A stretch of DNA of 59,023 bases, the filler included, from Dugesia japonica (Eukaryota), in NCBI GenBank assembly GCA_001938525.1. It is 5 parts of 5 records of this genome, joined end to end, with 100 filler letters (N's around TTAATTAATTAA, not from the genome) between each part and the next. Parts side by side here need not be neighbours in the genome. Positions count along the whole stretch, not along the records: positions 8,804 to 23,033 come from MQRL01623499.1; 4 more parts are not named here. The stretch is one strand, 5' to 3'. Both the position numbers and the translations under genes were made by a program. Position 1 is the first letter of the stretch. Each line of letters opens with the position of its first letter. Under the pieces are notes generated by a model. That model ran no database searches. It saw only the letters and a program-made list of their open reading frames with translations, and was not told the origin of the DNA. Of the stretch, positions 556-55,980 are shown piece by piece.

Positions 556-591
556 GTGGGTGCTCGCAGTGAGCAACGAGGCCCACCTAGT
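556..591 (+). mobile_element. Helitron-like 3' end (hairpin followed by CTAGT)
   Basis: GTGGG-TGCTC..GAGCA..CCCAC hairpin immediately followed by CTAGT. Confidence 0.4.
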
Positions 592-2966: not shown

Positions 2967-3314
2967 ATGTCTACCAGAATAACGAGACCAACGCAGGAAG
3001 AGTTATTGGTGGAGCAGCAGAAACTTCGAGCCGGAACGAAAAAGCTACAGAAAGAAATAAAGGAACTGAAGGACACCATCAGCAACACAAACAAGAAATC
3101 AGCCGTATTACGAGAACGATTGAGTGTGGGTCGGCGAAGGGAACTCACACTCATCTCGAATAACCAAATGCTAGCCGATCTCGTCAAGTCATACGCAGAT
3201 AGGGAAGCTGTGGTTCTAACTAAAACCAAACAACTATGGAAGGAATGTCGAGTTAAGGAGCGAGCGGAGACAGAAAATGTAATCACGGAGGAGACGATAT
3301 TTGGTTCACCGTAA
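2967..3314 (+). CDS. Orphan ~115-aa coiled-coil ORF, function unknown
   Basis: ATG at 2967, open frame, GC higher than flanks, heptads LQKEIKELKDTISNTNKK. Confidence 0.5.
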   Translation: MSTRITRPTQEELLVEQQKLRAGTKKLQKEIKELKDTISNTNKKSAVLRERLSVGRRRELTLISNNQMLADLVKSYADREAVVLTKTKQLWKECRVKERAETENVITEETIFGSP

Positions 3315-4199: not shown

Positions 4200-5290
4200 G
4201 CCATGTCAAAATAAATAACTTCTACAGTTTATTTAAAATTTCTATTTTGAAAAGACTATTCTGCAAGTTTAACGGAATTAAAGAAAATGCTCCCCGACAA
4301 GTACATACAAAAGAAAGCAAACCAAANNNNNNNNNNNNNNNNNNNNNNNNNNNNNNNNNNNNNNNNNNNNNNNNNNNNNNNNNNNNNNNNNNNNNNNNNA
4401 GAAAAAGATATTCGAATAAAAGAAGTGTAACAGATTTTGACAGAAACACGAAAGACAAGCACCTATGTAATGTCACAAAAGCTGTCAATTCCGCAATTGA
4501 CTGTTTTCAGAATTTTAAAGGAAGATTTAGGACTAAGAAAAAAATAGGCGGTTATATTCCACACGATTTTAACAAAAATCAACGGCAACATCGAGTTTTA
4601 GCCTACTCAAACAATATTAANNNNNNNNNNNNNNNNNNNNNNNNNNNNNNNNNNNNNNNNNNNNNNNNNNAGACTATTCTGCAAGTTTAACGGAATTAAA
4701 GAAAATGCTCCCCGACAAGTACATACAAAAGAAAGCAAACCAAAAATGATTCACTAACTTTAGAAAAGGTGATTTTCCGATAACAGACAAGCGAGGTGTT
4801 GATAGGACAATCGTCGCAGAAAAAGATATTCGAATAAAAGAAGTGTAACAGATTTTGACAGAAACACGAAAGACAAGCACCTATGTAATGTCACAAAAGC
4901 TGTCAATTCCGCAATTGACTGTTTTCAGAATTTTAAAGGAAGATTTAGGACTAAGAAAAAAATAGGCGGTTATATTCCACACGATTTTAACAAAAATCAA
5001 CGGCAACATCGAGTTTTAGCCTACTCAAACAATATTAAAGAATACAAAAAGCATAAAGAACGACTCAAACATACTTTGGCTATAGATGAGACATGGGTCA
5101 GATTTTACATGATTGCTTAGGCCCTCTTAAAAGAGCTCTTCGGGATGAGCAGCATGCAGATTGGTTACAATTCGAAAAACATCTAATGCAAGTTATTAAA
5201 GAAGGCACACAAAAAAGCTTATATGAAGGCGTTCAGCGATTTCCAGATCGTTGGCAAAGTGCCATTGATAAGAACGGGGACTACTTATGA
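4200..5290 (+). mobile_element. Mariner transposase relic with internal deletion; part duplicated across an assembly gap
   Basis: FRKGDF HTH segment, YIPHDF (WVPHEL motif), IDETWV (first catalytic D) fused to the C-terminus GPLKRALR...RWQSAIDKNGDY. 4251-4620 repeats 4671-5040 around a 50-N gap. Confidence 0.85.
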
Positions 5291-5319
5291 TATGTTCAAA
5301 ATTTTAGAGATTTCTTTGC

Positions 5320-5740
5320 TGCAAGTGCGTCAGTATTTTACCAAATATATTGAAGGATCGGGTAATTTGCATTGAGCTGATTTTTTACGAATTTGTGAAG
5401 CTGAAGCCAAAAATGAAATTAAAGAAATGATAAAAACAAGCCAATTGTTATAATGGTTGATGAATCTTTGACGCTGTATCTTTGCTGTATTGTTGAAAAC
5501 GGTTCTACCATCTACTGAACAGATTACTGTATTGGCATGAGTTAATTTCTTGGACACTTGCTGCCAGACAGTAGTAGACACTATGAGAGATTATAATGTC
5601 TCTTATACAAGTAAAGTTAGTTTAGTTTCGGATTAAGTCACCTATATGATTGCATGTTTTAGTAGTTTAAAAATTTTAATAGGAGAAAATATATTACATT
5701 TCCAGTGCTTGGCACATAAAATAAGCCTAATTGGAAAAAT
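5320..5740 (+). mobile_element. hAT/CGGBP-like transposase fragment
   Basis: Manual translation: VRQYFTKYIEGSGNLH*ADFLR (cf. CGGBP1 FLSRHVKNGGSIPKSDQLR), IVIMVDES, VSD*VTYM...ILHFQCLAHKISLIG (CxxH motif). Confidence 0.65.
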
Positions 5741-5859: not shown

Positions 5860-7860
5860 CTCTCCCCTCCTTCAAAACGTTTTCCGTGTTTTTAGCCATT
5901 CTATTCTTCTGGTTTTCAAACCATTTAGAAACTTGATTTCTACTTGATGTGCTGATAAAAACTTCATTATGTGATATGGCCCTTCATACAGCAAACCTTT
6001 TTTCTTTTGTTTGTGTGGTTCTACTCGGACTAATACCCACTCTCCCTCTTTCAAATATCTTTGTCCTCACTTATCTTTCTCGAAATTTTCCATTTTCTGC
6101 GCCGCCTTCTCCAAATTTTGTTGCACTATCTCTTCTCTGCCTGTCCTTCCTTTTGAGAGCGTTTCTTCTTTGGTATGCAGATTTATCTTTCGACCAAATA
6201 CCATTTCGAATGGAGAGAATTTTGTTGACNNNNNNNNNNNNNNNNTAATACTAACTTCTACTCTCGGTAATTAAGTCTCCTAATCTTTCTCATTACATTT
6301 CCCTTTTATTGATATCGTAATCATGCCCCTCACTGTTCGGATCACTCGTTCTACCAAACCATTCAACTGGTGTTGATACGGGGAACTAAACTCCTGTACA
6401 ATTCCAAATTTTCCTAGTTTTTTTGACATCGTTTGACTTTCAAGCCCTACTTCTGTCAATCAGAATGGGTTTGGGTTTACCAAAACGGTATATCCATGTG
6501 TTCAAAATTATCATAAAAATCGTTTTTTCATCCATTTTTGAAAATGCAGATAAGCTGACTAGACTATTAAAACGATCAATAATCACCACCATATATTTCT
6601 TTCCAAACTTGCTCTGTTCCATGAGCTATAACTAACACGATTTGTTCTAAAAAAATTTGGCTTCTCTATGGTATAAGTTTTTCTATTGTACGACTTTGTA
6701 CTACTTTTCTTTTGGCACACATCTCGCATTTATCAATACTTTTATTAATTTTCTCTCGCAACCTTGGCCAAAAATAACCATTTTGTACGTATGAAAATAA
6801 CCTTTTCCTTTCAGCATGAAATAAATCTTCATGAACTTTTTATATCACTTTATCAACTATGCTTGTCAGAACAATAAAAATGTATTTGCTCTTTCCACTC
6901 CTAACAAATCATCCACTATTTTCAATTCGTGCTTCAGTTTCCACACTATTTCTAGTCTCTAAACTTTCTTCTCGCAACATTACTACACAGCTTTGCATTT
7001 CTGAATCTTCTGTCTGATCCTGTCATTAATCATTGTAATTATATCGGTCTCATGTTGAATTTAATTGATATGTTTCACTCTGGCTTTTTATAAACTCTCC
7101 TTTAACCTCGACAACCCAACGCATTGTTGCGTTCTTCGCCTTTTCTATACTTAAATTCAAAATCATATTCTCCCAAATTCGCCATCCACTTCTGGAATTG
7201 TGGACTGATTTGTTTCTTTGTGTTGTTCATAAACACCAATGCTTTATGGTCCGTTCTTACTAGAAATCTCTTTCCATACAGATATTGTTTGAATTGTTGT
7301 ACAAATTTGTGTATAGCTAATAGTTCTTTCCTTGTCACACAGTACCATTTTTCATGAACTGTCAAATGTCGGGATCCATACACTATTACCACTTCCTTTT
7401 TCTCTTTGTATTGACTAAGAACTGCATCGATAGCCCCAAAACTAGCATCAGTGTCTAAAATGAACATCCGATCCTTTCTGGGATATTCTAATACTGGAGC
7501 ACTACATAGCTTGTCTTTTAATGCATTGAACTGTTCTGGCATGCTTCTGTCCAAACTAACGGTTTGTTGCAACCTGAGGTTGNTTCATATAAAGGAGCTG
7601 CTATTTTTGCATAATCTTTTATGAAACGCCTGAGGTAGTTTGTTAATCCGAGAAACGAAGGGAGTTTTGAAGAACATAATGGAACTATAGCATTCTTAAT
7701 CTCTTGAATCTTAACTTCATTAGTGCGTATATCAGTTGCACTAACTGTATGTCCCAAGCATAATACTTATTTCTGATAAAACTTAGATTTATCCGAGTTT
7801 ATTCTTAATCCCGAGTCTCTAATCCTGTAAAAGACTGTCTCTAACATTTTGTCGTGATCC
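5860..7860 (-). mobile_element. Ty3/Gypsy pol relic (RT end, RNase H, integrase) with polypurine tract
   Basis: SFLGLTNY, FILDTDAS, RTDHKAL, integrase core VIIDRF...IDR, GPY motif, then PPT GAAGGAGGGGAG at ~5862-5873. Many stops and frameshifts. Confidence 0.93.
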
Positions 7861-8803: not shown

Positions 8804-8838
8804 AAGTATATAATTTAAATCATTTTTCATGAGTCTTT

Positions 8839-9066
8839 TCAATATTTAAGAAGCGTTTTTTCATTTTCTAAATTAAAATAATTATTGAGAAAAATCAAAA
8901 AGTTTAACGAACAGTCACTAAGTCTAGATCGAATTTTTGAAGAGAAATTTCCAGCTGTGGATAATGAATGTTCACTCTTTGTAGAAATCAGTTTCAAAGT
9001 CANTATAGCATTATAAATTTTTGTTCTTTCATTTGTCGTTTCAAAGAAATTAAATTCCTTTTCCAA
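8839..9066 (-). mobile_element. hAT transposase C-terminal dimerisation domain fragment
   Basis: STKSEHSLSTAGNFSSKIRSRLSDCSLNFLIFL matches the S..SER.FS.AG..R.RL consensus. Confidence 0.8.
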
Positions 9067-10599
9067 ATTTATTTTAGAAGAACATCCTTTCTTTTTCGAT
9101 TCTTCATTTTCATTTAATGCGCTTTCAATACCTAGATTTTTCTTTATTTAAATCTTTCATTTCAATCTGGGAAATCTTTTTATTATTATTAAAATTAACT
9201 AAATTAAATTAAATTTAATTTAATTAAGTTAATTTATTTTTGTATGAGATGGGGTAGTCTTGATATTTTGCATGCAGAGTCTCTATATTTTGCATAAGAT
9301 GGGCAGTCTTGATATTTTGTAATATATTACTACTAGATATCGGGCATACTTTATATGTTTTAAGTTATTATTACAATATATCGGACAGTCTTGGTATTTT
9401 ACATCGTATGTGCAGTCTATATATATTTGTGCATAATATGAACAGTCTTGAAATGTCGAACTGGGAGTCACTTTATTTAACATGGGGAGCCTCTATATTT
9501 AGCGAATTAGTTGCATCTGAGTTGCATACGTATTGCATTTGTTTCAAAAATTTAAAATTGAGTTTTTTTTAAATCAAAATGGTTGCTACATTAAGTTTTA
9601 AAAAATCAAAATGTTGAGTTTTATGTTGAGTCTATGTTGAGTTTTAAAAATTTTCAGACTTGTGATTTTCAGTGTATGTGTGTTGCAGCTGTAATGCTTC
9701 TGAGNNNNNNNNNNNNNNNNNNNNNNNNNNNNNNNNNNNNNNNNNNNNNNNNNNNNNNNNNNNNNNNNNNAACTTTTATTAAAATATTCAAATAAAAAAG
9801 TTCAAAGTCTTTGTGATATTTACATGTTAAAATATATCTATCAAAAAACTTTAGAGAGGGGAGTCTTTGTAATATTTACACGATGAAATATATCTATTAA
9901 AAAACCTTAAAGAGGGAAGTATTTGTGATATTCAAATAAAAAAAGTTCAAAGAGAGAGTCTTTGTGATATTTGCATGATACAATATTCAAATTAAAACTT
10001 TTCTATACAAGATGACAAAAACAGAACTTTTTTCATAAAAAAAATATTAACTAGGTAATTATCTATAAAATCATATTAGTGATGCACTTTTAAATAAAAA
10101 AATCTCATTAGCGATCCAATTTTAAATAAAAATACTCATTAGTGTTGCAATTTTTAATAAAAAATCTCATNNNNNNNNNNNNNNNNNNNNNNNNNNNNNN
10201 NNNNNNNNNNNNNNNNNNNNCATTTAATAAATAATCTATTTACCGTTGCAATTTTTAATAGCAAATCTCATTAGCGATGCAATGTTTCATTTAAAAACAC
10301 ATATCTAGTGACAATATTTCTAAAAAAACATATTACTAGTGACAATTTTTCTATAAGCATTATATTGGTGATGCAGGATGTCTATAATAAACACCTATGT
10401 AATGACAATTTCGTATACAAAATGATAAAAACATAGAAACTTTCCATATAGCCTATATAAAAAAGACTTATAAGTAAATATTTTGATATCTAAATAGGGT
10501 TTATGAGTGTATAAAGTTTAAGAGTGAAGAGGATTAAAGAAGAAAGAGGGTTTATGAGTGTACGTTTTGCATTGGTACCTTGTATTATAGGATTTGTTT

Positions 10600-11520
10600 C
10601 TATAATTCAGATGACAAATCATAGTTACTATCTTTTATTGACATAGCAACTATGTAATATAAGGTTTATGAGTGTATTTATACTTAGTAAAATTGTATTA
10701 TATGGTTTATGAGTATATTATTTACATAGTTACCTTGTATTATTTACATGCAACCGTTTATAATAAGGATTAAAAGGATTATGAGTGCATTATTTACATA
10801 TGTAAATAATATGTAAATAATATGTAAATAATTACACCTTGTATTATTTACATAGCAACAATGAAATATAAGGTTTTTGTAGTATAAGACTTATGAGTGT
10901 ATTAATATAATGTTTACGGGTATATTATTTGTTTAGATACTAATATTTAGATAGTAATATTTACATAACAACCTTTTAATATATAATTTTTGCGTCTATT
11001 ATTTACATATTAACCGTGTATTATAGGATTTATCAGTGTATTATTTGCATAGTTACCTTGTATTATTTACATAACAACCATGTATTATAGGGATTTTGTG
11101 TGTATTAATACATTGTAGCCCTGTATTATAAGGTTTACGTGTATATTATTTACAAAACAACCGTTTAATGGTTTTTGTATGTATTTTTTACACAGTAACC
11201 TTATATTATATGGTTTATGAGTCTGTTTTTCACATAGTTAATTTTTATTATTTACATAGCAACCATGTATTATAAGGATTTGTGTGTATTAATACATAGT
11301 AACCATGTATTTAAAGTTTTATGAGTATATTATTTACATATTAACCATGTAATATATGTTCATCATGCACAATACNNNNNNNNNNNATGTTCATGACAAT
11401 TTTAGATAACAAATAAATAATAAGTCTATATAAAAACTTATAAGAAAATATTTTTATGATTGTATAGGGTTTGTATTATTTGTATTATTTACATATTTGC
11501 ATTATTTACATATTAACCGT
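10600..11520. repeat. Degenerate ~40-bp minisatellite (TATTATTTACATAGCAACCATGTATTATAAGGTTTATGAGTG-like)
   Basis: Many degenerate copies; inverted copies at 13100-13510. Confidence 0.85.
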
Positions 11521-11995
11521 GTAATGAATTATTAATGAATTATTTATAAACAATTTCCACACTTAACTATTAAAAAAAACAAAAATACCTATTGGAAATA
11601 TCTGAATTGAATACATGCAAGAAAATGTAGTTTTCTCATTTTTCGTGAACCAATTTCTAGCTGAAAGAATTTGTTTTGCTTTTAAGAATTCCGAAAAAAT
11701 AAGAATGTAGCATTTCCACCGAATATTCTTAGAGTTGAAATATATAGATCACCATCCTGTATTGTTTGTGAATTAAATTCCATTAAATTCTAATTTATTT
11801 TAAATTTAACAATCAATTCTATTTAGTTATATAATATTATATAATGTTATAAAAAATTGATTTTTTTTCTTAAAATTATAATTATTATAATAACATGTAT
11901 TTTTCTTTTATTGAAAAATTAAAACAAAAATCCATTTTCAATCATAATTTGTAACCATAAAAAGGACTAGTTTATCGTTCTCATTCCCTTATTAT

Positions 11996-12336
11996 TCATA
12001 ATTCTATCCTTGATAGAAGAAATTGAAAGCATTTCTCTTTTAACATAGATTTTCTTTGATCATTTGTGATTTCAACATGAGTCGGCCACTCGTTCATTGG
12101 ATCCAAAACGATCCTCTCTATGTCCATCTGTAAGAAATGTGGCATGTTCTCCCAATAAGAAAACTTCCAATGTTTGACCAGCGTCTTGAGACATGGGAAC
12201 GTCTCCTCTAGTATATCCTTTACTAAAATTAATAATAAAATAAAACTTTACTTTTCTCGTCATGGAAAACTTCCTCTTCTTGTTTGATATCTTCATCTCT
12301 GATAAGACATCCTTCTTCATATTGAAATAGAGCCAT
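11996..12336 (-). CDS. Putative spliced 103-aa unknown protein (exons 12336-12252 and 12222-11996, 29-nt GT-AG intron)
   Basis: Removing GTAAAG...TTTTAG joins MALFQYEEGCLIRDEDIKQEEEVFHDEK to IKDILEETFPCLKTLVKHWKFSYWENMPHFLQMDIERIVLDPMNEWPTH...SRIEL*. The unspliced frame stops inside the intron. Confidence 0.45.
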
Positions 12337-12524
12337 TTAGTGATTTTTTTCAAAATATATATAATTAAAAATAATTAATAATGTTAGTAATATATTATAT
12401 TTGAAAGTAAAATACCACAACGTAATATATTTAATTAATTTAATTTAAAAATTTTAATTTAAATTGTTATTATTTGCACCTGAGTTGTACTTGTATTGCA
12501 TTTGTATTGCGAATTTTCCAAGTT

Positions 12525-12962
12525 TTTTCAATCAAATTAAATAAATCTAAAGTAGTATTATTCACATATTTTTGAAAATTCAAATTTTTTAGTTCTAGTA
12601 TTACTAGCTTTCATGTTGAGAACTAATTTACAGATAAATAGTCATATCTTAAAAGTCTTAGAGCAGGAAATAACTCTGTTTCAAACCAGTAGTTATCTAT
12701 TCTTGTTAATTTATACAAATTAGTTGAAACTCATGTGTTTACGTAAATTGATAACGGCTGTAAATTTTTATATCCTAGGGTTCAAATGATGTGGTTCCAA
12801 TGGTTTCGTACAACCAATTATTCTACATTTTCCTGATCTAAAGTATATAATTGTAAATTTATCACTTTTGACTTTAAATTAACACGGTTTGCCTGTAGGA
12901 AAGCTTATTTTCTTTGTTACTTCTTGTGTCGTTTCACCTCTGTAATAAATATTGGTTATCAT
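12525..12962 (-). pseudogene. TBP-like pseudogene, paralog of 51813-52256
   Basis: Manual translation: MITNIYYRGETTQEVTKKISFPTGKPC*FKVKSDKFTIIYFRSGKCRIIGCTKPL ... NLYKLTRIDNYWFETELFPALRLLRYDYLSVN*FST*KLVILELK. Contains stops and a frameshift. Confidence 0.85.
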
Positions 12963-14169
12963 AATTGATGAATTAAAGAGGAACATTAGGGTTTTGATGA
13001 ATTTAATTTAATTGATTCATTAAAACAATGTACTACATTATAAATAAATTGAAGAAAATCGAGATAAAGAAATGATAATCAAATTATTCTACGTAAAAGA
13101 AATACCGTCATAAGCCCTAGTTTACACAGTTATTAGAAAATAATACATAGCTGTTATGTAAATGATACACTCATAAAACCTATATTACATAGCTGCTAAG
13201 TAAATAATACAATGTGAATATACAAATATTACACTCATAAACTATATATTACATGGTAACTATGTAAAAATACCTTCATAAACCCTATGTTGGACGTTTA
13301 CTATGTAAATAATTCCCTCATAAGTCTTATATTTCATAAACCTTATATTTCATGGTTGTTATGTATAAAATACACTCATAATCCTTATAAGACATGGTTG
13401 CTATGTAAATAATACAAAGTAAATATGTGAAAAACAGACTCATACATGGTTAATAATAAATAATACATACAAAAACCATTAAACGGTTGTTTTGTAAATA
13501 ATATACGCGTAAATAGATTATTTATTAAATGTTTCNTTGTCAATGAGATTTTTTATTAAAAATTGCAACACTAATGAGTATTTTTATTTAAAATTGGATC
13601 GCTAATGAGATTTTTTATTTAAAATTGCATCACTGATATGGTTTTATAGAAAATTACCTAGTTAATATTTTTTTTATGAAAAAAGTTCTGTTTTTGTCAT
13701 CTTGTATAGAAAAGTTTTAATTTGAATATTGTATCATGCAAATATCACAAAGACTCTCTCTTTGAACTTTTTTNNNNNNNNNNNNNNNNNNNNNNNNNNN
13801 NNNNNNNNNNNNNNNNNNNNNNNNNNNNNNNNNNNNNNNNNNNNNNNNNNNNNNNNNNNNNNNNNNNNNNNNNNNNNNNNNNNNNNNNNNNNNNNNNNNN
13901 NNNNNNNNNNNNNNNNNNNNNNNNNNNNNNNNNNNNNNNNNNNNNNNNNNNNNNNNNNNNNNNNNNNNNNNNNNNNNNNNNNNNNNNNNNNNNNNNNATA
14001 AATTCAACTCAGAAGCATTACAGCTGCAACACACATACACTGAAAATCACAAGTCTGAAAATTTTTAAAACTCAGCATAGCTGCCATTTTGATTTTTTTT
14101 TAAAACTTAATATAGCCACCATTTTGAATTTTATTTTATTTAATTATAATAAAAAGATTTCCCTAATTT

Positions 14170-14810
14170 AAATGAAAAATTTCCCTCCAAAATAATTTTT
14201 TTTGAATTTCCCGCCAAAAATATTTTTTTTTGAATTTCCAGCCAAAATTTTTTTTTTAAATTTCCCGCCAAAGAATTTTCAAAAATATCAAGACTCTTCT
14301 CTTCCCTGTTCGAAAATATTAAAAAACAACACTTCCCTGATCAAAATACCAAAAAATAAAAGAAAATTTTAAAAAAATACATCAAATACTCAAAAATAAC
14401 ATTACTTTCATTAAATTCATCAATTTAAGGAAAATACACTATTTTTAACCAAAATAAATATTTCAAAAAATTATAATTACATAACCACTCGACAGAAAAA
14501 TTTCAAAAAATTCTTAAAAATTCGATAATTAATTCTCTTTCCACACATACCAACCTGCACTTCACAAAAATTTTTTTAACACTTTTATACTACTTACACA
14601 TTAAAACAATCAAATAGTAGCCCTTAAAATAAAAAATCAAAGCACATTTGACAACCAACATCTTCACCATCACATTACCTCTCCAACAAACCATCAACCA
14701 ACAAATTCGATCAACCACATACCAACCTACAGCCTCCATAAAAACTACCACGATAACTCATACGACTGTGCCCGTGTGCCACTACCCTTGTATCAAAAAC
14801 CATCCATCCA
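14170..14810 (+). repeat. Conserved non-coding block with TTTCCCGCCAAA tandem units, homologous to 53290-53940
   Basis: Colinear similarity, e.g. AAATAAAAAATCAAAGCACATT and CCACGATAACTCATA.GACTGT...GCCACTACCCTT in both copies. Confidence 0.85.
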
Positions 14811-14864
14811 ATTTCATAAGTTCTTTAGACAATATATAGACCAAATTTTTGTCCAACCACAAAC

Positions 14865-15210
14865 AAATCTTCAAAACAACAAAAAAATTATCTCCAAGAT
14901 ATCCAGCTCCTTCTAGTTTTTTCCACTCTTACACAGGCAACGACGCACACAAACTCAACTTGATCTACTTTTTAAAAACCATCTTAGCAACCCAAACACA
15001 CACAAAATTTAAAATTTAAAAATACACACACACACTTTCAGGATCAAAAAACTGGAAAAAAACTGCGGATCAGTTTTTTTGATCCTGAAAGTGTGTGTGT
15101 GTGTATTTTTAAATTTTAAATTTTGTGTGCGTCGTTGTGTGTATAAGACTGGAAAAAACGAGGAGGAGCTGGATATCTTGGAGATAATTTTTTGTTGTTT
15201 TGAAGATTTT
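14865..15210. repeat. ~350-bp fold-back palindrome centred near 15063
   Basis: ACACACTTTCAGGATCAAAAAACTG pairs with CAGTTTTTTTGATCCTGAAAGTGTGT; outer arms AAATCTTCAAAACAAC and GTTGTTTTGAAGATTT. Confidence 0.9.
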
Positions 15211-15344
15211 TTTTTTTAAAAACACACTTTCAGGATCAAAAAAACTGATATGATCAAAAAATAATTTGATCTGATCAAAATTTTTTGATCCTAAAAATCT
15301 TAGAAAAAAAATGCGCACAAAAATTATGTCTAAGAAAACGTAGC

Positions 15345-18300
15345 TCAAGCGTATTGTGAAGTGTTGCATTAATCAAACCTCGAATTTTCCTGAACTGTCT
15401 TTCAATTTGTCCGTTTGCATTATGATGGTAAGGACTCGAAAAGCAAAGTTTAGTATCTAACTTCAGTGCAAACTCTATCATAATTTAGGATTCAAAAGCT
15501 TTTTCACCATCGAGTCTTATTTCTCTTCGACATCCAAATCTTAATATCCACTTTTCAAAAATAGCTTTTCGCATTGTTTCCTCGTTTTGTCTAGGCAATG
15601 GTATAAGAACCAGATATTTACTGTACTGGTCGATTATTCCAAGAATTTATTTTTTACGTCCACTTGTTTCCTGCATTGACCCACATATATCTGTGAATAT
15701 GACTTCAAACAAATTTGTAGCTTCTTATCTCTTTGTCTTCTCTTTAGTTGCTGTCGTCACTACTTTGATTTTCTGACAAATTTTTCAACTACGAACTATT
15801 TTCTGTATATGGCTCCACATATTCTTTGAAATGTATTTGTTTCTCATGTATTCATACATCTTCTCAACTTCTGTATGACATAATAATTTATGTATTTTTT
15901 CTATTGTCTAATGTATTTTGTCATCCGAAACTTTTATTTTCTTGATTAAATTTGTGTCCTCAGAAATGTTTAATTGCTCTTCTTTTTCCTTTTCAATTAT
16001 GTTCAGTATTCTTGTTTTAATCTTCCCTTTCTTGGCATCTTCATGTGACATTTGNNNNNNNNNNNNNNNNNNNNATCTTGGTCTAGATAACATATCTGCA
16101 TTACCATGTTGAATTCCTTTTCTATATTCCAGAACCATGTCTAGACTACTCACATGATTAATCCATGTCTGAAATTGTGATGTAATTGGTTTCTTCGTCT
16201 TCATCATGAAGGTTAGAGCTTTATGATCTGCTCTCAGAGTAAATCTTCTACCGNNNNNNNNNNNNNNNNNNNNNNNNNNNNNNNNNNNNNNNNNNNNNNN
16301 NNNNNNNNNNNNNNNNNNNNNNNNNNNNNNNNNNNNNNNNNNNNNNNNNNNNNNNNNNNNNNNNNNNNNNNNNNNNNNNNNNNNNNNNNNNNNNNNNNCA
16401 AAACTGGCATCTGTATCTAATATAAATTCTCTGTTTATGTCTGGAAAACACAATATTGGTGCAGTCATTAGATATTTCTTTAGACCCTCAAAAGTATAGT
16501 TTATTTCATCTGTTCATTCTAATTATATGCTGCTTGGCTCGCTACACAACTGCTCTAAAATCCTTGATTTTCTTGCGTAGTTTTCTATAAACTTTCTATA
16601 ATAATTACATATTCCTAAGAAACTTCGTAACTTCTTCACACAGTTAGATTTACTAATGTTTTTATTGCTTCTATTTTAAACGGATCAGTTCGGACACTAT
16701 CCTTGCTAATTATGTGTCCAAGAAATTTGATTTCGTTTTGAAGAAGTTGACACTTTTCTGAATTAATCCTTAGACCAGCCTTTAATATTTTCGTCAATAA
16801 TCTTTCAATTACTTCATGAGCTTTATTGTTCGTAAATATCAAGATGTCATCAAGATAAACCATGGCTCAATTGGTTTCGCTTACCACTTTTGTCATCATC
16901 TCTTAAAATGTCCCTGGGGCCGCTGAGATGCCAAATGGCATTCTATTAAAACAAGATTGTCCATGGTTTGTTGAAAACGCCGTTTTTTCTTGAGATTCTT
17001 CTTCGAGTTCTACCTGATAGTATGCATTTCCCAAATCTATTGAACTGAAATATTTGGCTCCATCTAACTTGTCCAGCATTTCATCGATATCAAGTATAGG
17101 AAAGGCTTGTCTTTTTGTTACTGCATTCAATTGTCTAAATTCCAAACATAATCTTATGTCCTTCTTTTCCTTTATCCAAACACAGATCAGTGGGGTATTC
17201 CATTTTTTTCAATTTTCAGATAATATTATTCTCGATAAGGTTTTGGATAGCTTCTTTAATTTTAGATTCTAAATTCACTGGTTGCATGTACGGTTTTACA
17301 TTGTTCGGTTCACTACTTGTAATTATTCTGTGTCTTGTCAGATGATTGCATCCTACATCCCATTTATCTGCCATAAAAGCATCTTCTTTACTTCCGATGA
17401 TCCTCTTTAATTTTCAAAATATTTAAAGCTCTTGCCAATATCACTTAATTTGTCTTACAAATTTTGTTTCAATATTGCAAATGTAATTTTCAACTTTTTC
17501 ATCCGTTTTGCTATCGACCTTTCGCATAAGCTGGTATCCAAAAACTCTAAACATATCTATTCCTTTTATCAGATCTTTCAGCAACTAAGAAAGTAATCTC
17601 TTTGCAAACTTCGTCAATTATAACTCCAGTTCTTTTTTCCAACAATTTCAAGTTTACTATTATTTGCACAACGCAATCTTTTATCACTCATTTCTAAATG
17701 TAATTCTCGTAATTTATTAAAATAACTCAAACTCATCATGTTAATTCGAGCCTCTGTCTCTAATAGACATTCGACTTTATTTCCTTGAATTGATACTGTT
17801 ACATTTGGTTTGCCTTGCAATTTATGGTACAAAATATTTGTTTTCTGTTCTGCTTCAACTGCTCCAATCCATTTTACTTTTCTATCATCCAAAATAATTT
17901 CCCTCTTAAAGAACCTGTATACTTTTTCTAAACCTTTTCCGATATCATCCCATTTTTGGAGACCTTGAGGATAATCAATTATTTCATTTTCGTCAATTAA
18001 TATTTTATCGGAATATTTTAATTTTTAATTAATATTTTATTAATATTTTAATTAATATTTTATGGCTCCAACCAACTCTTCTACTGGTGGAGCCCTGCCT
18101 TTTTGATACTTTCTTTCCGAATCACTTTCATACACTTCTTCATATCTATCGTTTCTATTGACATCTTTATCTTAAATCGCATGTACTCGATTATATCGGT
18201 TTCTTGATATATCTGAAATTGTAAATTTGTCACTTGTTTTGTTCATTTTCAAGTTTGTGTAGCACTCTTCTGCTCTATGTCAGACATAACCACATCATTT

Positions 18301-19277
18301 ACACCTCACTTCTTGACATAACCTTCTAATATGGTCAACCTTTCCAAAGCCAAAACAATTTGTTGGTTTTTTATTTGGACAATCTCGAGTTATATGTCCT
18401 GTTTTATGATAGGTCCAACACTCTCCTACTTTTTTCGTTGGACAATTTGCTTTAGTATGACCGATCTTATGACATAACCAACACTCGATATTTTGTTTTT
18501 CCTTTCTTTGATCCACAGTATGATTTACAGGTTTCTGATAATTTTGACTTCTAACTTTCGCGTAACTTCTAACTGCATTGACTTGATCTCTGTTTTTCTC
18601 TACTCGATCTACTAACGTCATTGTTTCTTCAATTTCATCTATATTCTCTCGTTTTTGCAAAGTCACTTCTTCAACGTTTTTGTTATCTGAACAATATACT
18701 AGCATCTTTGCTACCATTTTTTCTTCAGTTAAATCTTTATTTGTAAATAATCGTTTTTCATTTTTAAAATAAACTTGAATCTCTTCATTTCCACGCCTGT
18801 AGTTAATCAAATTTTGAAAATCTTTGATAATATCTTTCTCTTTCTCAAATGCCATGCGTAAATCGGCCTGAAATCCTTCAACTTTTTTCAACGTCTTTGC
18901 ATATTCTTTTAACCAATCTTCATCTAACAAACACGAGACCAATCTCTATGTTGTTTCACATAGGTGATATTTTTAGCTTCAAAATACAATTTACACCGCT
19001 TGATGAATTTCTCAATATCATCTCCTCTGCGGAAAATTTCCGGCAATAACCTTTATGTAATGGAATCGGTATTTACCACTGCCACCATATTAGATAAATC
19101 TTCAATTGGTAATTCATTTTCCAAATCAAACCTAATATTTTGTTACATCATTTATTTTACTACTACAACTCTGCTATTTAGAAATAATTATCATTGAAAA
19201 GAACTGATTGAAACTTAGTGCTGAATTAACTCACTTTCTATTGTCTAAAAATATTAAATAATAATTATTTCCTTACA
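15345..19277 (-). mobile_element. Ty3/Gypsy element with 5' LTR (~19088-19277), PBS and degraded gag-PR-RT-RH-INT; 3' truncated
   Basis: Gag CCHC knuckles, CLLETEA (protease site), RMPFG, VYLDDI, FILDTDAS, integrase SSPYHHNANGQIER. PBS TGGTGGCAGTGG at 19087-19076; LTR begins TGTAAG. Confidence 0.95.
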
Positions 19278-19358
19278 TAGATAATATAAAAAAATAGAAA
19301 TGGAAGAAGAAAAAAATAATTTAATTCGAAAACCTACTTCCCAATATTAACAAAAAAA

Positions 19359-19643
19359 TTGGAATTTTGTATTGTATTCAATAAAAAAATGGATGAATTC
19401 TTAGAAAGAGTTTCTCAAGATAAAAATTACTTGAATCAAATTTGCCAAGAATATTCAAAAGTAAAACACTTAACATTGTTGAAAATTTTTCCACAATTAG
19501 ATCAATATAAAATTCAAATGGAAATTACTGGTGAGACAATATACCAGCTAGATATTAAAGTCGAGGTGTTAATTGAACGTTTAAAGAAATGGGGAGGTGT
19601 TGATGAAAATAAAATTGATAATAATAATAAAATTGATAATTGA
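19359..19643 (+). CDS. Unknown ORF upstream of the capsid-like relic, probable Polinton gene
   Basis: 94-aa open frame with no recognised motif; assignment from context only. Confidence 0.3.
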   Translation: MEFCIVFNKKMDEFLERVSQDKNYLNQICQEYSKVKHLTLLKIFPQLDQYKIQMEITGETIYQLDIKVEVLIERLKKWGGVDENKIDNNNKIDN

Positions 19644-19699
19644 AGCTAAAAATGCAAAAATTCGAGAAATTAATAAAGACCTATAAAGCTGTGTTTGTA

Positions 19700-20440
19700 T
19701 TAGACAAATGGAAGATAAATTATTACTTTACGGTGAGGCTACAATGGTGAGGCTACAATGATTGCAAAATTTAAATTATTAATTTTAGAATTACATATTC
19801 CAGAATGGAATTTAAATTCAAGAAAAGAAATGGAATATATAGATCAATTAACTTCAAATAAACCAATTCCAGTTTCATTTTTAAATAGATTATGTGGTAA
19901 TCAATCAATGGATACAGGAACAAATTATTCAATTAAAATTGGTAATTTAGCATATAAATCAAGATTTATTTTAATTGTATTTAAACAAGCAGAAATATCA
20001 TTTGAAAAAATAATTATTTATTTATACAAAAGAATACAATTATTATAATAATTATTACAATTATTATTAAAATAATTATTATAAAAATTATTTATTTAAT
20101 ACAATTACTGGAAAAGTTTCTGATAAAGATACACCAGTAGATTATTGTGTAAGAATTATTCAAATTTAATTAAATAATTCATATTTTTCAATAAATCGAA
20201 TGGAAATGAATATTAAAAATAATGAAGTAATATTTTCATATTAAACATATGTGTAGATACATGTTTAGAATTTTTTATTCAACCACAATTATCATTAATA
20301 GAATGGAAAACTTTGTATTCAATTTTTTATATGAATGTATCAGGCCAAGATTCAAAATTATCAATAAATATTGTTGATATAACTTCAAATGTAACAAAAG
20401 AAACAAATTTAAAAGGAAATATTTATTGGGTTATATATTC
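19700..20440 (+). pseudogene. Polinton/Maverick major-capsid-like (double jelly-roll) C-terminal relic
   Basis: ELHIPE...NKPIPVSFLNRLC...KSRFILIVFK and LSLIEWKTLYSIFYMNVSGQDSKL resemble remembered Polinton capsid motifs (W.MP.V..S...IP.AFR.RQC; KPRYIIV.FQ; LYPLFV.DVSKQ). Confidence 0.6.
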
Positions 20441-20944
20441 TAGAGAATTAAATAATCTTGGAGAAAACATTCTGGAGCAAGACATTTACCAGAACATAAA
20501 AGGCTATTTCTCATCTTTACATAAATTAACCATGTCTATTAAATAGATAATATTTGGCTGATTCCAAATCTATAAAAATAAAATCGTTAAAGTTTATTCG
20601 GGATGAAATAAATGTGGTTTTGTGACGGAAAATATCAAATTTTGATTTTTGGTGCTTAATTTTCTCTGCGTATATAACTCTTGTGGTTTCAAATTTGGAA
20701 TTATTTTACTCAGGAGAAAAAAGTGACTGTACAAAGTTAAAATATCATCTCGAAAAATATGCTTCCAAACGAATATATACAGCTATCATCCCGGAATTGG
20801 TAACTATTTTCCAAAATTGAAAGATTATCTCAAAATTGGTCAAAGAGGTATCTACTCGATAGGGACTCTTTCACTGATTCCAAATATTTAAACCTAAAAT
20901 CATCAAACCTTAAAGATAAAAAGTTATATAGAAAAAACATGTAT

Positions 20945-21210
20945 TCATTTAAAATAAAAGCTTCGATCAAAATTGTTTATTTAATTTGGTATTTGATAGC
21001 AATTCGATATTTTGACTTAGTCTTCTTCAGGAATTGACTTTCAATTGACTTTCAAAGTCAATTCCTGAAGAAGACTAAGTCGAAATATAGAATTTCTATC
21101 AAATACCAAATTATAAAAAACAATTTTGATCGAAGCTTTTATTTTAAATGAATTTTGTAAAATGATCAATGGTTATGTCCAACAATTATTCTCGCAATAA
21201 TTGCAATTAT
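20945..21210. mobile_element. Short PLE-end insertion: ~210-bp palindrome plus 3' tail
   Basis: Arms TTCATTTAAAATAAAAGCTTCGATCAAAA and TTTTGATCGAAGCTTTTATTTTAAATGAA; tail CAACAATTATTCTCGCAATAATTGCAATT recurs elsewhere in the window. Confidence 0.75.
21059..21095 (+). ncRNA. Minimal type I hammerhead ribozyme motif (mirror copy at 21000-21036, minus strand)
   Basis: aattc-CTGAAGA-A-GAC-TAA-GTC-GAAA-TATA-gaatt: stem I, conserved core, stem II, loopless stem III. Confidence 0.75.
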
Positions 21211-51812: not shown

Positions 51813-52256
51813 ATGTTAGTTAATATTAATTACAATGGTAAAGTGTCGCGAGATGTAACAAGCAAAATGAAGTTTCCTATCAGTAAACCTTCTCAATATG
51901 TTGACAAAAGTGGAAAATATACTTTAATATTCTTTAAATCAAGAAATTGTCGAATAATGGGATGTAAAAAATCGTTGGAATTGGAAACATTACAGTATGA
52001 TACAAAAGATATTTGTTTGCAATCATTAACAATTGTAATCAATTTAGCACAAGTAATCAATTTGTATAAATTAGCAAAAATAACAAAATGTTGGTTTGAA
52101 CCAGAATTGTTTCCTGCATTACAACCTAAAAAGTATGACCCTGTATGTGTAAACGTATTTTCATCATGCAAAGTTGTAATACTCGGTATAAAGACTTTAT
52201 ACTATCAAAGATATGTAGATAATATAATTTCTGATTTTCATAATTTAATTGTTTAA
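51813..52256 (+). CDS. Compact TBP-like protein (147 aa) within a Polinton
   Basis: Two TBP half-repeats: TLIFFKSRNCRIMGCK (cf. TALIFSSGKMVCTGAK) and WFEPELFPAL...VNVFSSCKVVILGIK (cf. YEPELFPGL...LLIFVSGKVVLTGAK). Open and intronless. Confidence 0.85.
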   Translation: MLVNINYNGKVSRDVTSKMKFPISKPSQYVDKSGKYTLIFFKSRNCRIMGCKKSLELETLQYDTKDICLQSLTIVINLAQVINLYKLAKITKCWFEPELFPALQPKKYDPVCVNVFSSCKVVILGIKTLYYQRYVDNIISDFHNLIV

Positions 52257-52599: not shown

Positions 52600-53138
52600 A
52601 TTATTTGATACTTTTATTCTATTTTTTTTATAAAGCTCGTTTGCTACAGTTGGCGGATCAAGTTTAAACAATTTTACCAAATTATGCATTAGGAAACTTA
52701 TGTTTTTTAATGAATCCATATTGAAATTTAGTTTTTCACACTTTTTTCTTTTCTTAATAATACCAAACTATCCAAAAATTGAATTGCCATCAACGCGTGT
52801 AAACCAGGTTCTAGTATATTTTCAAACTGATGTCGATAGAGTAATACCTCATTATTCGAAATCTTTTCAAAAGCATCCATGAAAAAATCGAGATTGTAAA
52901 CATTCTTCAGATTTTCTGCTTTGTTTGCTTTACATTCGCTTAAGAAATCAATATAATTTAAGCTTACGTATTTATCCTCAGTATTTAATGATGAAAGAAT
53001 TTTCAGAATTTTGGATTAGGCCATTTCTTTCTTGTATTCTTTTTCAATCTCTTCATTTCCAGAACACAAATATCAATATTTTTCATTATTTCTTCTTGTT
53101 TCAATGATTTTGCTAATATTTTAAAAATAATGATTCAT
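52600..53138 (-). pseudogene. Degraded unknown Polinton ORF
   Basis: Long frame with few stops: ...SKILKILSSLNTEDKYVSLNYIDFLSECK...FFMDAFEKISNNEVLLYRHQFENILEPGLHALMAIQFLDSL. Confidence 0.35.
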
Positions 53139-53289
53139 TTAAAAAATCATAAATTTATATACATGTCGGTGTGTCTGCGTGAATGTATGTAATAAACATA
53201 AATTAATCGGATTGGCTAAAAAATTCAAACAATACATAAATATAAAGTCTTTTCAAAATAAATTTAATTAAATTTAATTAAGTTTAATT

Positions 53290-53940
53290 AAATTAAAAAT
53301 TTTCCCCCGCCAAAAAATAGTTTTTAAAATTTCCTGCAAAAAATATTTTTTTAAATTTCTCACCAAAAAATATTTTATTTGAATTTCCCACTAAAATATT
53401 TTTTCTTTTTGAATTTGTTGCTAAAAATAACAAGACTAACCTCTTCCCTCTTCAAAACATAGAAAAACCCACCCTTCCCAATCAAAAATACTCAAAAAAT
53501 ACTCAAAAATACATAAAATACTCAAAAATATCATTACTTTCAATGAATTCATCATTTTAAACAAAAAACAGCATTTTTATACAAAATAAAAATTTCAAAA
53601 GATTATTACATTATACCCGCCTAACAGAAAAATTTCAAAAAAATCTTAAAAAAATTTGATAATTAATTCTTTTTCTACCCATACCACTCTCCCCTCCCGA
53701 ATTTTTTTTAACACACTTATACTACTTACAAATATCAACCAATCAAATTAAAGCCCTCAAAATAAAAAATCAAAGCACATTCGACATACATTATCTTTTC
53801 CATCATATTCCCTTTCCAACAACCCATCAACCAACAAAATCCAACTACCACATACAAACCAACAGCCTCCCAAAAAACACGCCACGATAACTCATAGGAC
53901 TGTATCGTGGCGCCACTACCCTTCTAACAAAAAATCCATT
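53290..53940 (+). repeat. Second copy of the conserved non-coding block (cf. 14170-14810)
   Basis: Colinear similarity, degenerate TTTCCCGCCAAA units, hairpin CGCCACGATA...TATCGTGGCG. Confidence 0.85.
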
Positions 53941-54429
53941 CATCATTGATTACACAATCGTTACGTAATCGGCCAAGAAGATTACGTAATCAACATGAAA
54001 GCATTATGAAATCGTTATGTAATCGTATTGGACATATTTCTTGATTACGCTATCGTTGTGAAATTATTATGCAATCGACAATTACCATTACATAATACTT
54101 ATGTAATCATTACGTAACTATTGCATAATTAGTCTCACCATTACCATATCAACTGTTTCCATAACAACCATTAATACAGTAAGGATTTTTTTAAAAAAGA
54201 ATTTACTTTTCTCGAGAACTATGTCAAGTTACACATCATTTGATGCAGAATTTTACGCTGCTCACGAATATCATAGTCTAAAAGTGTTAAAACATACACA
54301 GCAAATTTTTTAAAAACAAATTATAAAACAACAATATCGATATAATTAACAATAAAACAACAATAATAAATATAATAAGTTAAAATTAAACAATTCTTTT
54401 TACAAAATTTTATTATTTTTAAAAAATAT

Positions 54430-55980
54430 TTACAACAACGAGTAATGCCCATATGCCACACTGCTATTTTGAGAAGTCCAATTCCTTTTGTCATCAAACG
54501 GATCCAATGCTTTCTTTGTTGTCTGAATGGTAAATAATTGATGGTTCACTGTTCCAATTCTGCTTTGAACTACTCGTTTTTTTTCACCATTCTCATATGC
54601 ATCTATATAGTCTTGATGACTAATATTGGTTTGCTTGAGAAATATACATTTACTCTTCATCATTGTTTTTTCATCGGTTTGAAGTGAATTTGACTTTGGG
54701 CGAAGAAATATCCATTCTTTAAAATTAACCAGACCTTTATTTTCATCCTTAAACTTCCCAATAGCTTCTGTTAATTGTGCTGAATAAATATAATCTTATT
54801 TATGAAAATTAGAACTGTCTAGAAGCTTGTCTTGCATCATTGCTGGAAGAAGCTGCTGTTTCTGATCAATATTCTTGCACTCTAGAAAGAAGCTGTCTGT
54901 GCCTCCAGCAACGATGTTTATTTCACAATTAAATCTTTTTTGTATGACTCCATATTGTAACTTATACATTCTGAACTTTGAGAGATCCAGAACTGCTTGT
55001 CCGATATATGATGGTATATCCAATGTTACAATATCCTTATCTAATAAAAGGGCAACCAAATCATCGGTTATTTCGATTAAAACTTTGAATTGTGGCTTAC
55101 TAGCATATGTAATAAGTTTCTTTTCATTGTTGCACAGTCTCAAATTTATACGTTTTAATAGGTTTTCAACAGTTTTTCCATACAGAACTTTGTTTTTTAG
55201 TTTGAAAAAATCTTTCTCAAAGACGTTAGTAGATTGAGCCCGTCAGTCGATATATGACTTAAAAACAGAGCCTTGATCAAACGCTACCGCCCGATTGACT
55301 TTATCTACTTTTGCACCAGTTTCATAAACAATTGAGGCATCCAATAATGCATAATATAATTCTGTTTTGCTACATGTGTCAAAAGTAATTTCTTAACTTT
55401 ACTTCCTGGTGGGCATTACTTGATTGGAGCAAGTTGCAGTTGGTATTTTTGTTATGTTATTCAGGTGGAGTTGATAGGTCTACCTCAAAAACAAGTCCAC
55501 GCTCTTCTTTCTCCGTATCCAAATATTGCAATATTTCTAACATAGTCTTCAGCCAATCTTCATCAATTATACATTTAAAATGACCATATAGTAACGATTC
55601 ACTCAAAGCCCATCCATACAGATTATTAATGTCAGTATAAAGCAGACTTGTGTTTTCATCTGCACGTACTCTATGTTTATTGACAAAGGTCATTCCTCCT
55701 CTTATTCCAGCTTGGAAAAAGAAGTACATTTCAGGCTCTTGTAACAAATCAATCTTAACCGGACATGTTTTTATTGCGGTTGCTCAACTTAGAGCTGGTA
55801 TTGGTATAAAGTTTGCTGCTTTAAGCCCATCCTAATCCTTGACTTGTGTTCTAAATTGTTCAAAAACATTGACAAGCAGGTATATGTCTAATTTTATGTA
55901 TATTAGCATATACTGTAAGAGATTAGTGCAACCGTATTGCGTTCATACTTGTTTTGCTTCATCAGATTCTTCTTGCACCT
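54430..55980 (-). pseudogene. Polinton protein-primed family B DNA polymerase relic
   Basis: AGIRGG, YTDINNLYGWALS, FFKLKNKVLYGKTVEN, PSYIGQAVLDLSK, GGTDSF, KKALDPFDDKR...AYGHY. Confidence 0.95.

What the first reader, a model, noticed from the sequence alone, without database searches (positions are those of the whole stretch)
12525..12962. Second, diverged TBP-like copy absent from the ORF track
Seen: a pseudogene colinear with 51813-52256 from the start Met to the C-terminus (NI.Y.G, FP..KP, F.S..CRI.GC.K.L, NLYKL..I, WFE.ELFPAL, K.VIL..K). It is on a different scaffold piece, about 1.2 kb from the same non-coding block; a capsid-like relic lies further along that piece. Many differences are conservative while motifs are kept. 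Inference: the gene is old, selected cargo of a family rather than a chance capture.
Basis: partly seen in the sequence, partly recalled or inferred. Interest (0 to 1): 0.8.

Follow-up and report, generated by a model that had tools for sequence, protein, structure and literature searches.

The report
Mass-copied Polinton mini-TBP pseudogene
This is a dead copy of a shortened TATA-binding-protein gene carried by virus-like Polinton transposons, which likely use the protein to switch on their packaging and capsid genes, and in this host the gene's cassette has likely been copied hundreds to thousands of times without the rest of the virus.

Summary
The broken copy is real: colinear with 51813-52256, 68 of 134 codons identical, four stops, one frameshift. 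It belongs to a family of ~148-aa TBP-fold proteins. Of 66 metagenome loci, 29 have Polinton hallmark genes alongside (14 of 16 loci of 4 kb or more), and intact members are under purifying selection. In those elements an ATAAAC box sits 28-50 nt before 38 of 65 virion-module genes but only 4 of 77 TBP-class genes. The protein is therefore likely a late-promoter factor, as herpesvirus vTBP is. Both window copies are relics. New here: in the host's DNA runs, summed contig depth over the TBP cassette is about 180 times that over the polymerase relic. The broken copy sits between inverted, internally repetitive arms, most likely a non-autonomous Polinton derivative. Its ends, target-site duplication and true copy number were not determined. 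This scan already noted the mini-TBP and its box in other genomes; my literature searches found only a figure-legend label.

The parts
12525..12962 (-). Broken mini-TBP gene (pseudogene): four in-frame stops, one frameshift zone at 12764-12782, 3' end blurred
   Evidence: groups with intact homologues P0010/P0011 (100/99) in the tree
12963..13068 (.). Upstream region homologous to the divergent TBP/ATPase intergenic region of the ORF copy (51690-51812)
   Evidence: blastn 67% through this stretch; side by side
13050..13100 (+). Probable few-codon remnant of the packaging-ATPase start, cut off by the right arm (weak, inferred)
   Evidence: homology ends at the position of the ATPase start in the ORF locus; no tblastn hit
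12363..12524 (-). 3' flank of the TBP cassette; left edge of the high-depth unit
   Evidence: summed contig depth rises from 552 to 23,809 (X1) at 12363
11550..12362 (-). Lower-copy inner segment with a broken ORF of unknown kind (about 11999-12320)
   Evidence: depth 66-1,048 in X1; no Pfam hit at E 0.05; no homologue of 40-130 aa
10450..11547 (-). Left inner arm: degenerate ~42-bp tandem array, crossing an 11-N gap
13140..13513 (+). Right inner arm: the same ~42-bp array, inverted (67-83% identity to the left)
9794..10327 (-). Left arm: 56-bp and 31-bp tandem modules
13509..13773 (+). Right arm: 31-bp and 56-bp modules, inverted; 97.8% identical to 9939-10170 beside gaps, so possibly an assembly duplicate
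9150..9704 (-). Left outer arm: 9571-9704 and 9150-9203 are inverted copies of 14008-14182 (82-85%); 9169-9221 matches the start of the block at the ORF locus
14008..14808 (+). Right outer arm including the shared non-coding block (14168-14808); probable element end
   Evidence: depth falls from 23,315 to 291 just past the homologous end in the ORF locus
51813..52256 (+). Open mini-TBP ORF (147 aa); probably also a decaying relic, keeping 34 of 38 conserved positions, with broken neighbours
   Evidence: Pfam TBP E 1.8e-7; model pLDDT 94
51450..51689 (-). N-terminal part of the packaging ATPase, broken, head-to-head with TBP; ATAAAT (one mismatch from the box) 32 nt upstream
   Evidence: tblastn E 1e-28; translation; sequence
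51064..51402 (-). Adenovirus-type protease relic directly after the ATPase part, so integrase and capsid genes are deleted here
   Evidence: tblastn E 1e-27; Peptidase_C5 in relatives
52731..53200 (-). Broken ORF of unknown kind converging on TBP; intermediate depth
   Evidence: no Pfam hit
53288..53944 (+). Second copy of the non-coding block
54436..55969 (-). Protein-primed polymerase B relic, low depth
   Evidence: tblastn E 1e-120; Pfam DNA_pol_B_2 E 0.0097; depth 224-5,554 in X1
19320..20543 (+).
   Evidence: DJR-like_dom E 0.02; no match from the capsid cluster of TBP-carrying loci

Best explanation
The locus is a decayed copy of a shortened TBP gene carried by one group of Polintons, whose product likely reads a variant TATA box in front of their packaging and capsid genes, and this copy likely rode along inside a non-autonomous, mass-copied derivative of such an element. 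Step 1 (shown): the gene is a conserved, selected part of Polintons with ATPase, integrase, capsid, protease and pPolB. Step 2 (motifs shown, function inferred): most TBP genes have an initiator-like TCA(T/C)(T/A) motif and over half a canonical TATA box, so host polymerase II would express them early. The protein keeps the TFIIB-binding stirrup but has a remodelled DNA face, and would recruit host TFIIB and polymerase to (C/T)ATAAAC(A/G) boxes about 35 nt before the late genes. Step 3 (depth and arms shown, mechanism inferred): in this host, internal deletions left short elements holding TBP, its divergent promoter and the ends. These would be copied in trans by autonomous elements, reaching hundreds to thousands of copies. 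Step 4 (shown): this copy then decayed and no longer encodes a protein.
For: Family and context. L072 was found by ATPase alone and carries TBP and the box. Fold: pLDDT 94; VIA Z 12.5, rmsd 2.8 A over 147 residues to yeast TBP. The stirrup E96-P97-E98 and F100, F116, F41 are 97-100% conserved in 122 homologues, matching E144/E146/F148/F165/F74 of Arabidopsis TBP (PMC10005294, passages). Box: 16 of 19 ATPase, 9 of 13 c5, 5 of 10 c10, 4 of 9 capsid and 3 of 4 PLA2 upstream regions, against 1 of 39 TBP; Fisher p 1e-12; background 1.5%. Two integrase-found Polintons without TBP in the held stretch lack the box. Amplification: 4,059-4,412 contigs per run laid on 1.8 kb in 3 of 3 DNA runs from three studies; TBP:pPolB depth ratio 182 and 186 in 2 of 2 runs. 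Arms. Contigs joining the left array directly to the TBP 3' flank occur in 3 of 3 DNA runs.
Against: No binding or transcription data link the protein to the box. The control without TBP is only 2 distant elements, one of them half held. The box is missing from the -28 to -50 window before 0 of 9 integrase, 0 of 4 protease and 5 of 9 capsid genes, with starts guessed as the first ATG, and the 'late' grouping was made after seeing the data. Loci from few samples are not independent. The tool states that summed depth is no copy number: overlap of short contigs could inflate the ratio up to 31-fold, leaving about 6. No Polinton-type termini or target-site duplication were found. The arms cross four assembly gaps, and the ORF locus lacks the inner arrays. 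No genome was held for counting.
Confidence: 0.68

Rival explanations
1. The gene is Polinton cargo as above, but the mass amplification was done by an unrelated foldback-type DNA transposon (Mutator/FB, P/Galileo or hAT) or a Helitron that captured the TBP cassette as a passenger.
For: Long arms built of 31-, 42- and 56-bp tandem modules are typical of foldback elements (Galileo abstract start, PMC3573991, search listing). A fragment resembling a hAT transposase C-terminus (recalled motif; no Pfam hit) abuts the left arm. No Polinton-type ends were seen.
Against: The outer block also lies beside the ORF copy, between its TBP and pPolB, and both sub-lineages are amplified with the same TBP/ATPase promoter region. 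Two separate captures of the same cassette would be needed.
Confidence: 0.2
2. The mini-TBP is selected cargo but not a late-promoter factor. The ATAAAC box is read by host TBP or another viral protein, and the mini-TBP is a decoy or modulator of host transcription or acts at the replication origin.
For: TATAAAC is close to a canonical TATA box. No TFIIB or polymerase gene was found among 43 proteins from these loci. KSHV vTBP also acts in DNA replication (PMC6541308, abstract and introduction).
Against: The box has a fixed C and a fixed distance and segregates by gene class. The family has invariant non-canonical residues on the DNA face while keeping the stirrup. The box is absent from two Polintons without TBP.
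Confidence: 0.22
3. The foldback arrangement and the high depth are artefacts: scaffolding errors around gaps plus over-counted short contigs. The locus is an ordinary low-copy Polinton fossil.
For: Near-identical duplicates sit beside gaps here and elsewhere in the window (4400-4620/4818-5038, 56015-56214/58251-58450). The tool warns against reading depth as copy number.
Against: Inverted inner arrays flank the gene within one gap-free contig (11387-13773) at 67-83% identity. Thousands of distinct variant contigs occur, 73% of them under 95% alike in X1, with sharp and reproducible depth edges in three studies.
Confidence: 0.08
4. The gene is a duplicated host TBP paralogue or a one-off capture of host TBP.
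For: Pfam TBP hit and TBP fold.
Against: About 20% identity to cellular TBP but up to 71% to Polinton-associated homologues; the family forms its own clade apart from canonical TBPs.
Confidence: 0.02

Closest known systems
Cellular TBP and TBP-related factors (Pfam PF00352; PDB 1tbp, 1cdw)
   Same: Two-repeat saddle fold over the whole length (Z 12.5); C-terminal stirrup glutamates and three intercalating phenylalanine positions kept.
   Different: About 148 aa with no N-terminal tail and a shortened first repeat; about 20% identity; the outer N-terminal phenylalanine appears lost (inferred from spacing); several DNA-face positions carry other, invariant residues (S71, N114, L124 against N, L, T in the archaeal alignment; R47).
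Beta/gamma-herpesvirus viral TBP (KSHV ORF24, EBV BcRF1, HCMV UL87) and its TATT late promoters (PMC6541308; I read the abstract and introduction)
   Same: A virus without its own RNA polymerase encodes a TBP-like protein, and its structural genes have a modified TATA box about 30 nt upstream.
   Different: The herpes protein also binds polymerase II and works in a six-protein complex. The Polinton protein is a bare core with the TFIIB stirrup, the box is ATAAAC, and nothing is shown by experiment.
Polintons/Mavericks/adintoviruses (PMC8502044: passages and section 3.4; PMC6431247: passages)
   Same: Relatives carry pPolB, rve integrase with chromodomain, A32-type ATPase, adenain-type protease and a capsid-like gene; some carry PLA2.
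   Different: TBP is not a described core gene: only a 'TBP' label in the Fig. 5 legend of PMC8502044, whose figure I could not see. The window copies are internally deleted and lack integrase and capsid.
TBP-like proteins of large DNA viruses (Heterosigma akashiwo virus, asfa-like B263R, mimiviruses)
   Same: Viral TBP fold (Foldseek E 1e-7 to 1e-4).
   Different: They are longer (186-842 aa among the 21 hits at E 0.001 or less) and only 8-16% identical; many of those viruses encode their own RNA polymerase (recalled).
Foldback-type and other non-autonomous DNA elements (FB, Galileo; non-autonomous Polintons, recalled from Kapitonov and Jurka 2006, not read)
   Same: Long inverted arms made of tandem modules around a small core; apparently high copy number.
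   Different: The core is a Polinton transcription-factor gene with its divergent promoter; the mobilising enzyme and the ends are not identified.

Membership tests
TBP family (PF00352) | Two-repeat saddle fold | tested here: met
   Model pLDDT 94.3; VIA Z 12.5, rmsd 2.8, 147 aligned to 1tbp_A; Pfam 31.3 bits against cut-off 22.9
TBP family (PF00352) | C-terminal stirrup glutamates that bind TFIIB | tested here: met
   E96 in 118 of 122 and E98 in 122 of 122 homologues; role from PMC10005294 passages. Binding itself not tested.
TBP family (PF00352) | Four intercalating phenylalanines | tested here: inconclusive
   F41, F100 and F116 in 121-122 of 122; the fourth seems absent by spacing, but I saw no residue-level structural alignment
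TBP family (PF00352) | Canonical TATA-contacting residues on the concave face | tested here: not met
   S71, N114 and mostly L124 stand where archaeal TBP has N, L and T; that these positions touch DNA is recalled
TBP family (PF00352) | This copy encodes a protein | tested here: not met
   Four stops and a frameshift; 0 of 261 RNA reads at 99% or more alike
Polinton/Maverick (autonomous) | pPolB, integrase, ATPase, protease and capsid genes in relatives | tested here: met
   L008 and L021 carry all five clusters; 14 of 16 loci of 4 kb or more carry at least one. The capsid label is recalled from sequence; it has no Pfam hit.
Polinton/Maverick (autonomous) | The same gene set at the two window loci | tested here: not met
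   No integrase or matching capsid; ATPase, protease and pPolB only as broken relics at the ORF locus, and none by tblastn at the broken locus
Polinton/Maverick (autonomous or non-autonomous) | Terminal inverted repeats ending 5'-AG...CT-3' and a 6-bp target-site duplication (recalled) | tested here: inconclusive
   Inverted arms present; the left end is truncated, and the right ends of the two blocks do not show the expected terminus
Herpesvirus-type late TBP system | Modified TATA box about 30 nt before structural genes and not before early genes | tested here: met
   38 of 65 against 4 of 77; background 1.5%; measured from guessed start codons, not transcription starts
Herpesvirus-type late TBP system | The viral TBP binds the box and is needed for late transcription | not testable with these tools
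   Needs binding and reporter assays
Herpesvirus-type late TBP system | Polymerase II-binding extension and multi-subunit viral complex | tested here: not met
   The TBP fold spans residues 1-147, leaving no extra domain; no known partner family among 43 scanned proteins
Foldback-type non-autonomous element | Long, internally repetitive inverted arms around a core | tested here: met
   the outer parts cross assembly gaps
Foldback-type non-autonomous element | High, dispersed copy number | tested here: inconclusive
   Depth and thousands of variant contigs point to it, but insertion sites could not be counted
Foldback-type non-autonomous element | Identified partner transposase | not testable with these tools
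   No host genome held

The most novel reading that the evidence does not exclude
A group of animal Polintons runs a two-stage transcription cascade with a minimal, re-specified TBP as its own late-gene factor. In this host, defective derivatives that keep exactly the TBP/ATPase divergent promoter were amplified to thousands of copies in two sub-lineages because that region acts in cis for copying, making them satellite-like parasites of an endogenous virus and a major repeat family.
Probability: 0.25. Interest if true: 0.85.

Novelty: new variant of a known kind. Interest (0 to 1): 0.6.

Why it matters
How Polintons time their gene expression without their own RNA polymerase is not established in the papers I could search. 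A 148-aa TBP with a matching promoter box gives a directly testable answer and a minimal natural example of changed TBP specificity, parallel to herpesvirus late transcription. A staged early/late programme would also support the view that these elements are true viruses. Separately, if hundreds to thousands of TBP-cassette copies are real, a viral transcription-factor cassette is a large repeat family in this host; it could be mis-annotated as a TBP gene expansion and may scatter promoter boxes. The locus given is itself a dead copy and matters only as a marker of these two things.

Tried and rejected
No whole genome was held, so copies and flanks could not be counted. The protein atlas returned nothing for the ORF or for homologue P0002, so there is no taxon information. 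Controls without TBP were scarce. Capsid and ATPase alignments found no relatives in viral contigs (0 of 82 and 0 of 222 stretches). The integrase alignment gave 2 loci, whose full records were not held. A DNA pattern scan gave 3 loci with no TBP by HMM. The ATPase scan of prokaryote genomes gave 1 locus, a Polinton piece within a bacterial bin. The inner-segment ORF has no homologue of 40-130 aa and no similarity to the ORF beside the second copy. The capsid relic was rejected as part of this element. No RNA holder was listed by the run index, which is no evidence either way. RNA reads laid at 80% likeness came mostly from other copies, and 74-94% ran on into unlike sequence, so expression of an intact gene is not shown; X15 showed no clear strand bias. 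The idea that the ATAAAC box is just the stop codon of the gene before was considered; the fixed distance and fixed C argue against it, but I did not test reading frames. No complex was predicted: TBP with TFIIB needs DNA and would pass by likeness to solved structures. Five of 71 loci (L001, L067, L069, L070, L071) were dropped before the flank count as canonical-like TBPs. Literature: searches (TBP in Polintons; promoter motifs; non-autonomous or foldback Polintons). In-text finds gave no TBP mention in 10.64898/2026.06.19.733378 or PMC10748475 and none in the one held supplement of PMC8502044. Figures and bioRxiv supplements were not seen and may name the element labelled TBP; subscription papers and Repbase are not searched.

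Full report
Observation. The window is five scaffold pieces joined by artificial spacers; the broken copy is on piece 8804-23033 and the open ORF on 50456-59023. tblastn with the ORF finds the broken copy in two frames, E 2e-14 and 3e-19, and DNA similarity is 67% over 570 columns, extending about 105 nt upstream of the start. Compared piece by piece, 68 of 134 codons give the same residue; there are four stops and one frameshift zone.

What the gene is. The ORF scores above the Pfam TBP cut-off. A confident model (pLDDT 94) matches cellular TBP over its whole length (Foldseek E 9e-9; VIA Z 12.5, rmsd 2.8, 147 aligned) at about 20% identity. A single-sequence search found 43 homologues among 56 candidates. 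The profile found 385 among 2,342 candidates, and none of the 120 listed came from NCBI or UniRef. In the 50%-cluster library, 55 representatives scored E 1e-30 or better. In a 51-row tree the family is separate from five canonical-like TBPs, which sit on long branches. The broken copy groups with P0010 and P0011 (100/99) and the ORF copy lies outside that group, both within one 15-row clade. They are therefore two sub-lineages rather than a recent duplicate.

Context. I fetched 71 loci and dropped 5 canonical-like TBPs. Of 66, 29 carry Polinton hallmark genes, 32 carry only accessory genes shared among these loci, and 5 contigs of 1.0-1.7 kb carry neither. Of 16 loci of 4 kb or more, 14 carry hallmarks. 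Pfam confirms A32-type ATPase, rve integrase with chromodomain, Peptidase_C5, DNA_pol_B_2 and a PLA2-like gene; the capsid label for cluster 9 is recalled. Many loci come from few related samples. L072, found by ATPase alone, also carries TBP. In the window, the ORF copy lies head-to-head with a broken ATPase start, followed directly by a protease relic, with a pPolB relic downstream: an internally deleted Polinton.

Selection. Among 44 open ORFs (946 pairs), 167 pairs with pS between 0.05 and 0.6 give median dN/dS 0.47, and the 13 closest give 0.15-0.60, 10 of them at or below 0.31. The two window copies give 0.50, 0.65 or 0.75 depending on the transition weight (bootstrap upper bounds 0.79, 1.01, 1.16), against 1.31 (0.85-2.05) for a neutral simulation at matched divergence. 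This fits selection in the active past followed by decay. The broken copy keeps 26 of 37 conserved positions and the ORF copy 34 of 38, while 98 of 122 homologues keep 36 or more. Both are probably relics.

How it likely works. The stirrup glutamates that bind TFIIB in cellular TBP (PMC10005294, passages) are kept in 118 and 122 of 122 homologues, and three phenylalanines in 121-122 of 122. Several positions on the DNA face hold other residues that are themselves nearly invariant. An unguided 6-mer count found ATAAAC in 59 upstream regions against 5.1 expected. It clusters 31-45 nt before the start codon with consensus (C/T)ATAAAC(A/G). With stricter de-duplication it precedes 38 of 65 virion-module genes and 4 of 77 TBP-class genes (p 1e-12; background 1.5%); it is absent from that window for 9 of 9 integrase and 4 of 4 protease genes. 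TBP genes instead have an initiator-like motif (36 of 41) and often a canonical TATA (24 of 41). Two Polintons without TBP in the held stretch lack the box, a weak control. I infer an early/late cascade like that of KSHV ORF24 and its TATT promoters (PMC6541308, abstract and introduction), but through host TFIIB. Binding is untested.

Amplification in this host. Ten runs of one organism hold part of the stretch, at most 40% of its words. At 80% likeness, 4,059-4,412 contigs per run were laid on 1.8 kb in three DNA runs of three studies. Summed depth in X1 is 66-1,048 over 11509-12362 and 21,000-387,000 over 12363-13200, while long single contigs have depth about 7-35. At the ORF locus, depth is 157,000-630,000 over the ATPase start, TBP and 3' flank, 224-5,554 over pPolB, and drops from 23,315 to 291 just past the block. 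The TBP:pPolB ratio is 182 and 186; if all possible over-counting (31-fold) fell on TBP it would be about 6. Rough bounds are a floor of about 230 and 430 copies for the two types and a ceiling near 33,000. The tool warns that summed depth is no copy number, so 'hundreds to thousands' is an inference. Replicating virus would raise pPolB equally, and the spread of identities indicates an old genomic family.

Structure around the broken copy. Reading outward on both sides are a 42-bp array, 31- and 56-bp modules, and two unique segments, all inverted. The block is therefore most simply the outer part of the element's end, which explains why it lies 5' of one copy and 3' of the other. Contigs that join the left array directly to the TBP 3' flank occur in all three DNA runs. 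One large deletion from the ATPase start to the right arm would give this core. Against this reading, the arms cross four gaps, one 97.8% match beside gaps may be an assembly duplicate, no expected termini or target-site duplication were found, and capture by an unrelated foldback transposon remains possible.

Expression. In RNA run X12, 261 reads lay on the broken locus, none at 99% or more and 3 at 95-99%. Orientation is sense to TBP if the library is of the usual stranded type (64 against 7 in the best bin), and 78% run on into unlike sequence. Relatives are transcribed at some level; this copy is not shown to be. X15 was weak and showed no clear strand bias.

Known or new. Searches found no description of a TBP family or a late box in Polintons beyond a 'TBP' label in a figure legend of Starrett et al. 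(PMC8502044 and 10.1101/697771; passages and section 3.4 read, figure not visible). Searches found no TBP-carrying non-autonomous Polinton in listings or abstract starts. After my motif analysis, I found that earlier agents of this scan had reported the mini-TBP and a shared box in other genomes; these unchecked notes agree but are not independent evidence. The host is not identified; a dynein light chain fragment and recalled transposon motifs suggest an AT-rich animal.

Verdict. The locus is a dead marker of a new variant of viral TBP systems and of a likely high-copy defective element. Interest 0.6.

Noticed in passing
L071:1406-1960 with 2336-3137: A TBP that groups with the canonical-like TBPs lies beside Polinton protease and capsid genes, possibly a second, separate TBP acquisition.
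   Followed up: partly
window 10577-11376 and 13140-13513: The 42-bp arm unit contains CATAAAC, pointing the same way relative to the core on both arms (4 and 3 copies). It is close to the late box but mostly followed by C, which 0 of 78 boxes have.
   Followed up: partly
window 9510-9560 and 12470-12520: A motif from the TBP 3' flank recurs inside the left arm, perhaps a remnant of a nested copy.
   Followed up: partly
upstream of TBP in L006, L010-L017, L022, L038, L042-L054 and both window copies: Many TBP genes without a clear TATA box have a TTGTTT(T/A)A motif about 40-60 nt upstream, a near-reverse of the late box; it may be autoregulatory.
   Followed up: no
L008:7217, L021:7942, L039:5890: The capsid gene's box lies inside the 3' end of the preceding small gene, which may constrain that protein's C-terminal motif.
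   Followed up: no
window 54396-56010: Low-level RNA reads over the pPolB relic in X12 are mostly in the sense direction, suggesting some transcribed relatives.
   Followed up: no
window 19320-20543: Relic of a capsid gene of a different Polinton type (DJR-like_dom, weak), so at least two Polinton types seem to have invaded this host.
   Followed up: partly
window 14861-15213, 20943-21153, 29916-30098, 41619-41887, 42750-43188, 48082-48958: Several palindromic, MITE-like or foldback repeats.
   Followed up: no
window 24156-24377: Host gene fragment: dynein light chain (Pfam E 1e-20).
   Followed up: no
L072 (whole contig): A 3.8-kb Polinton fragment is filed inside a bacterial metagenome bin, probably mis-binned.
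   Followed up: no
window 7102-7542, 15300-18950, 25650-29500: Decayed Ty3/gypsy-type retroelement pieces (motifs recalled; seen).
   Followed up: no
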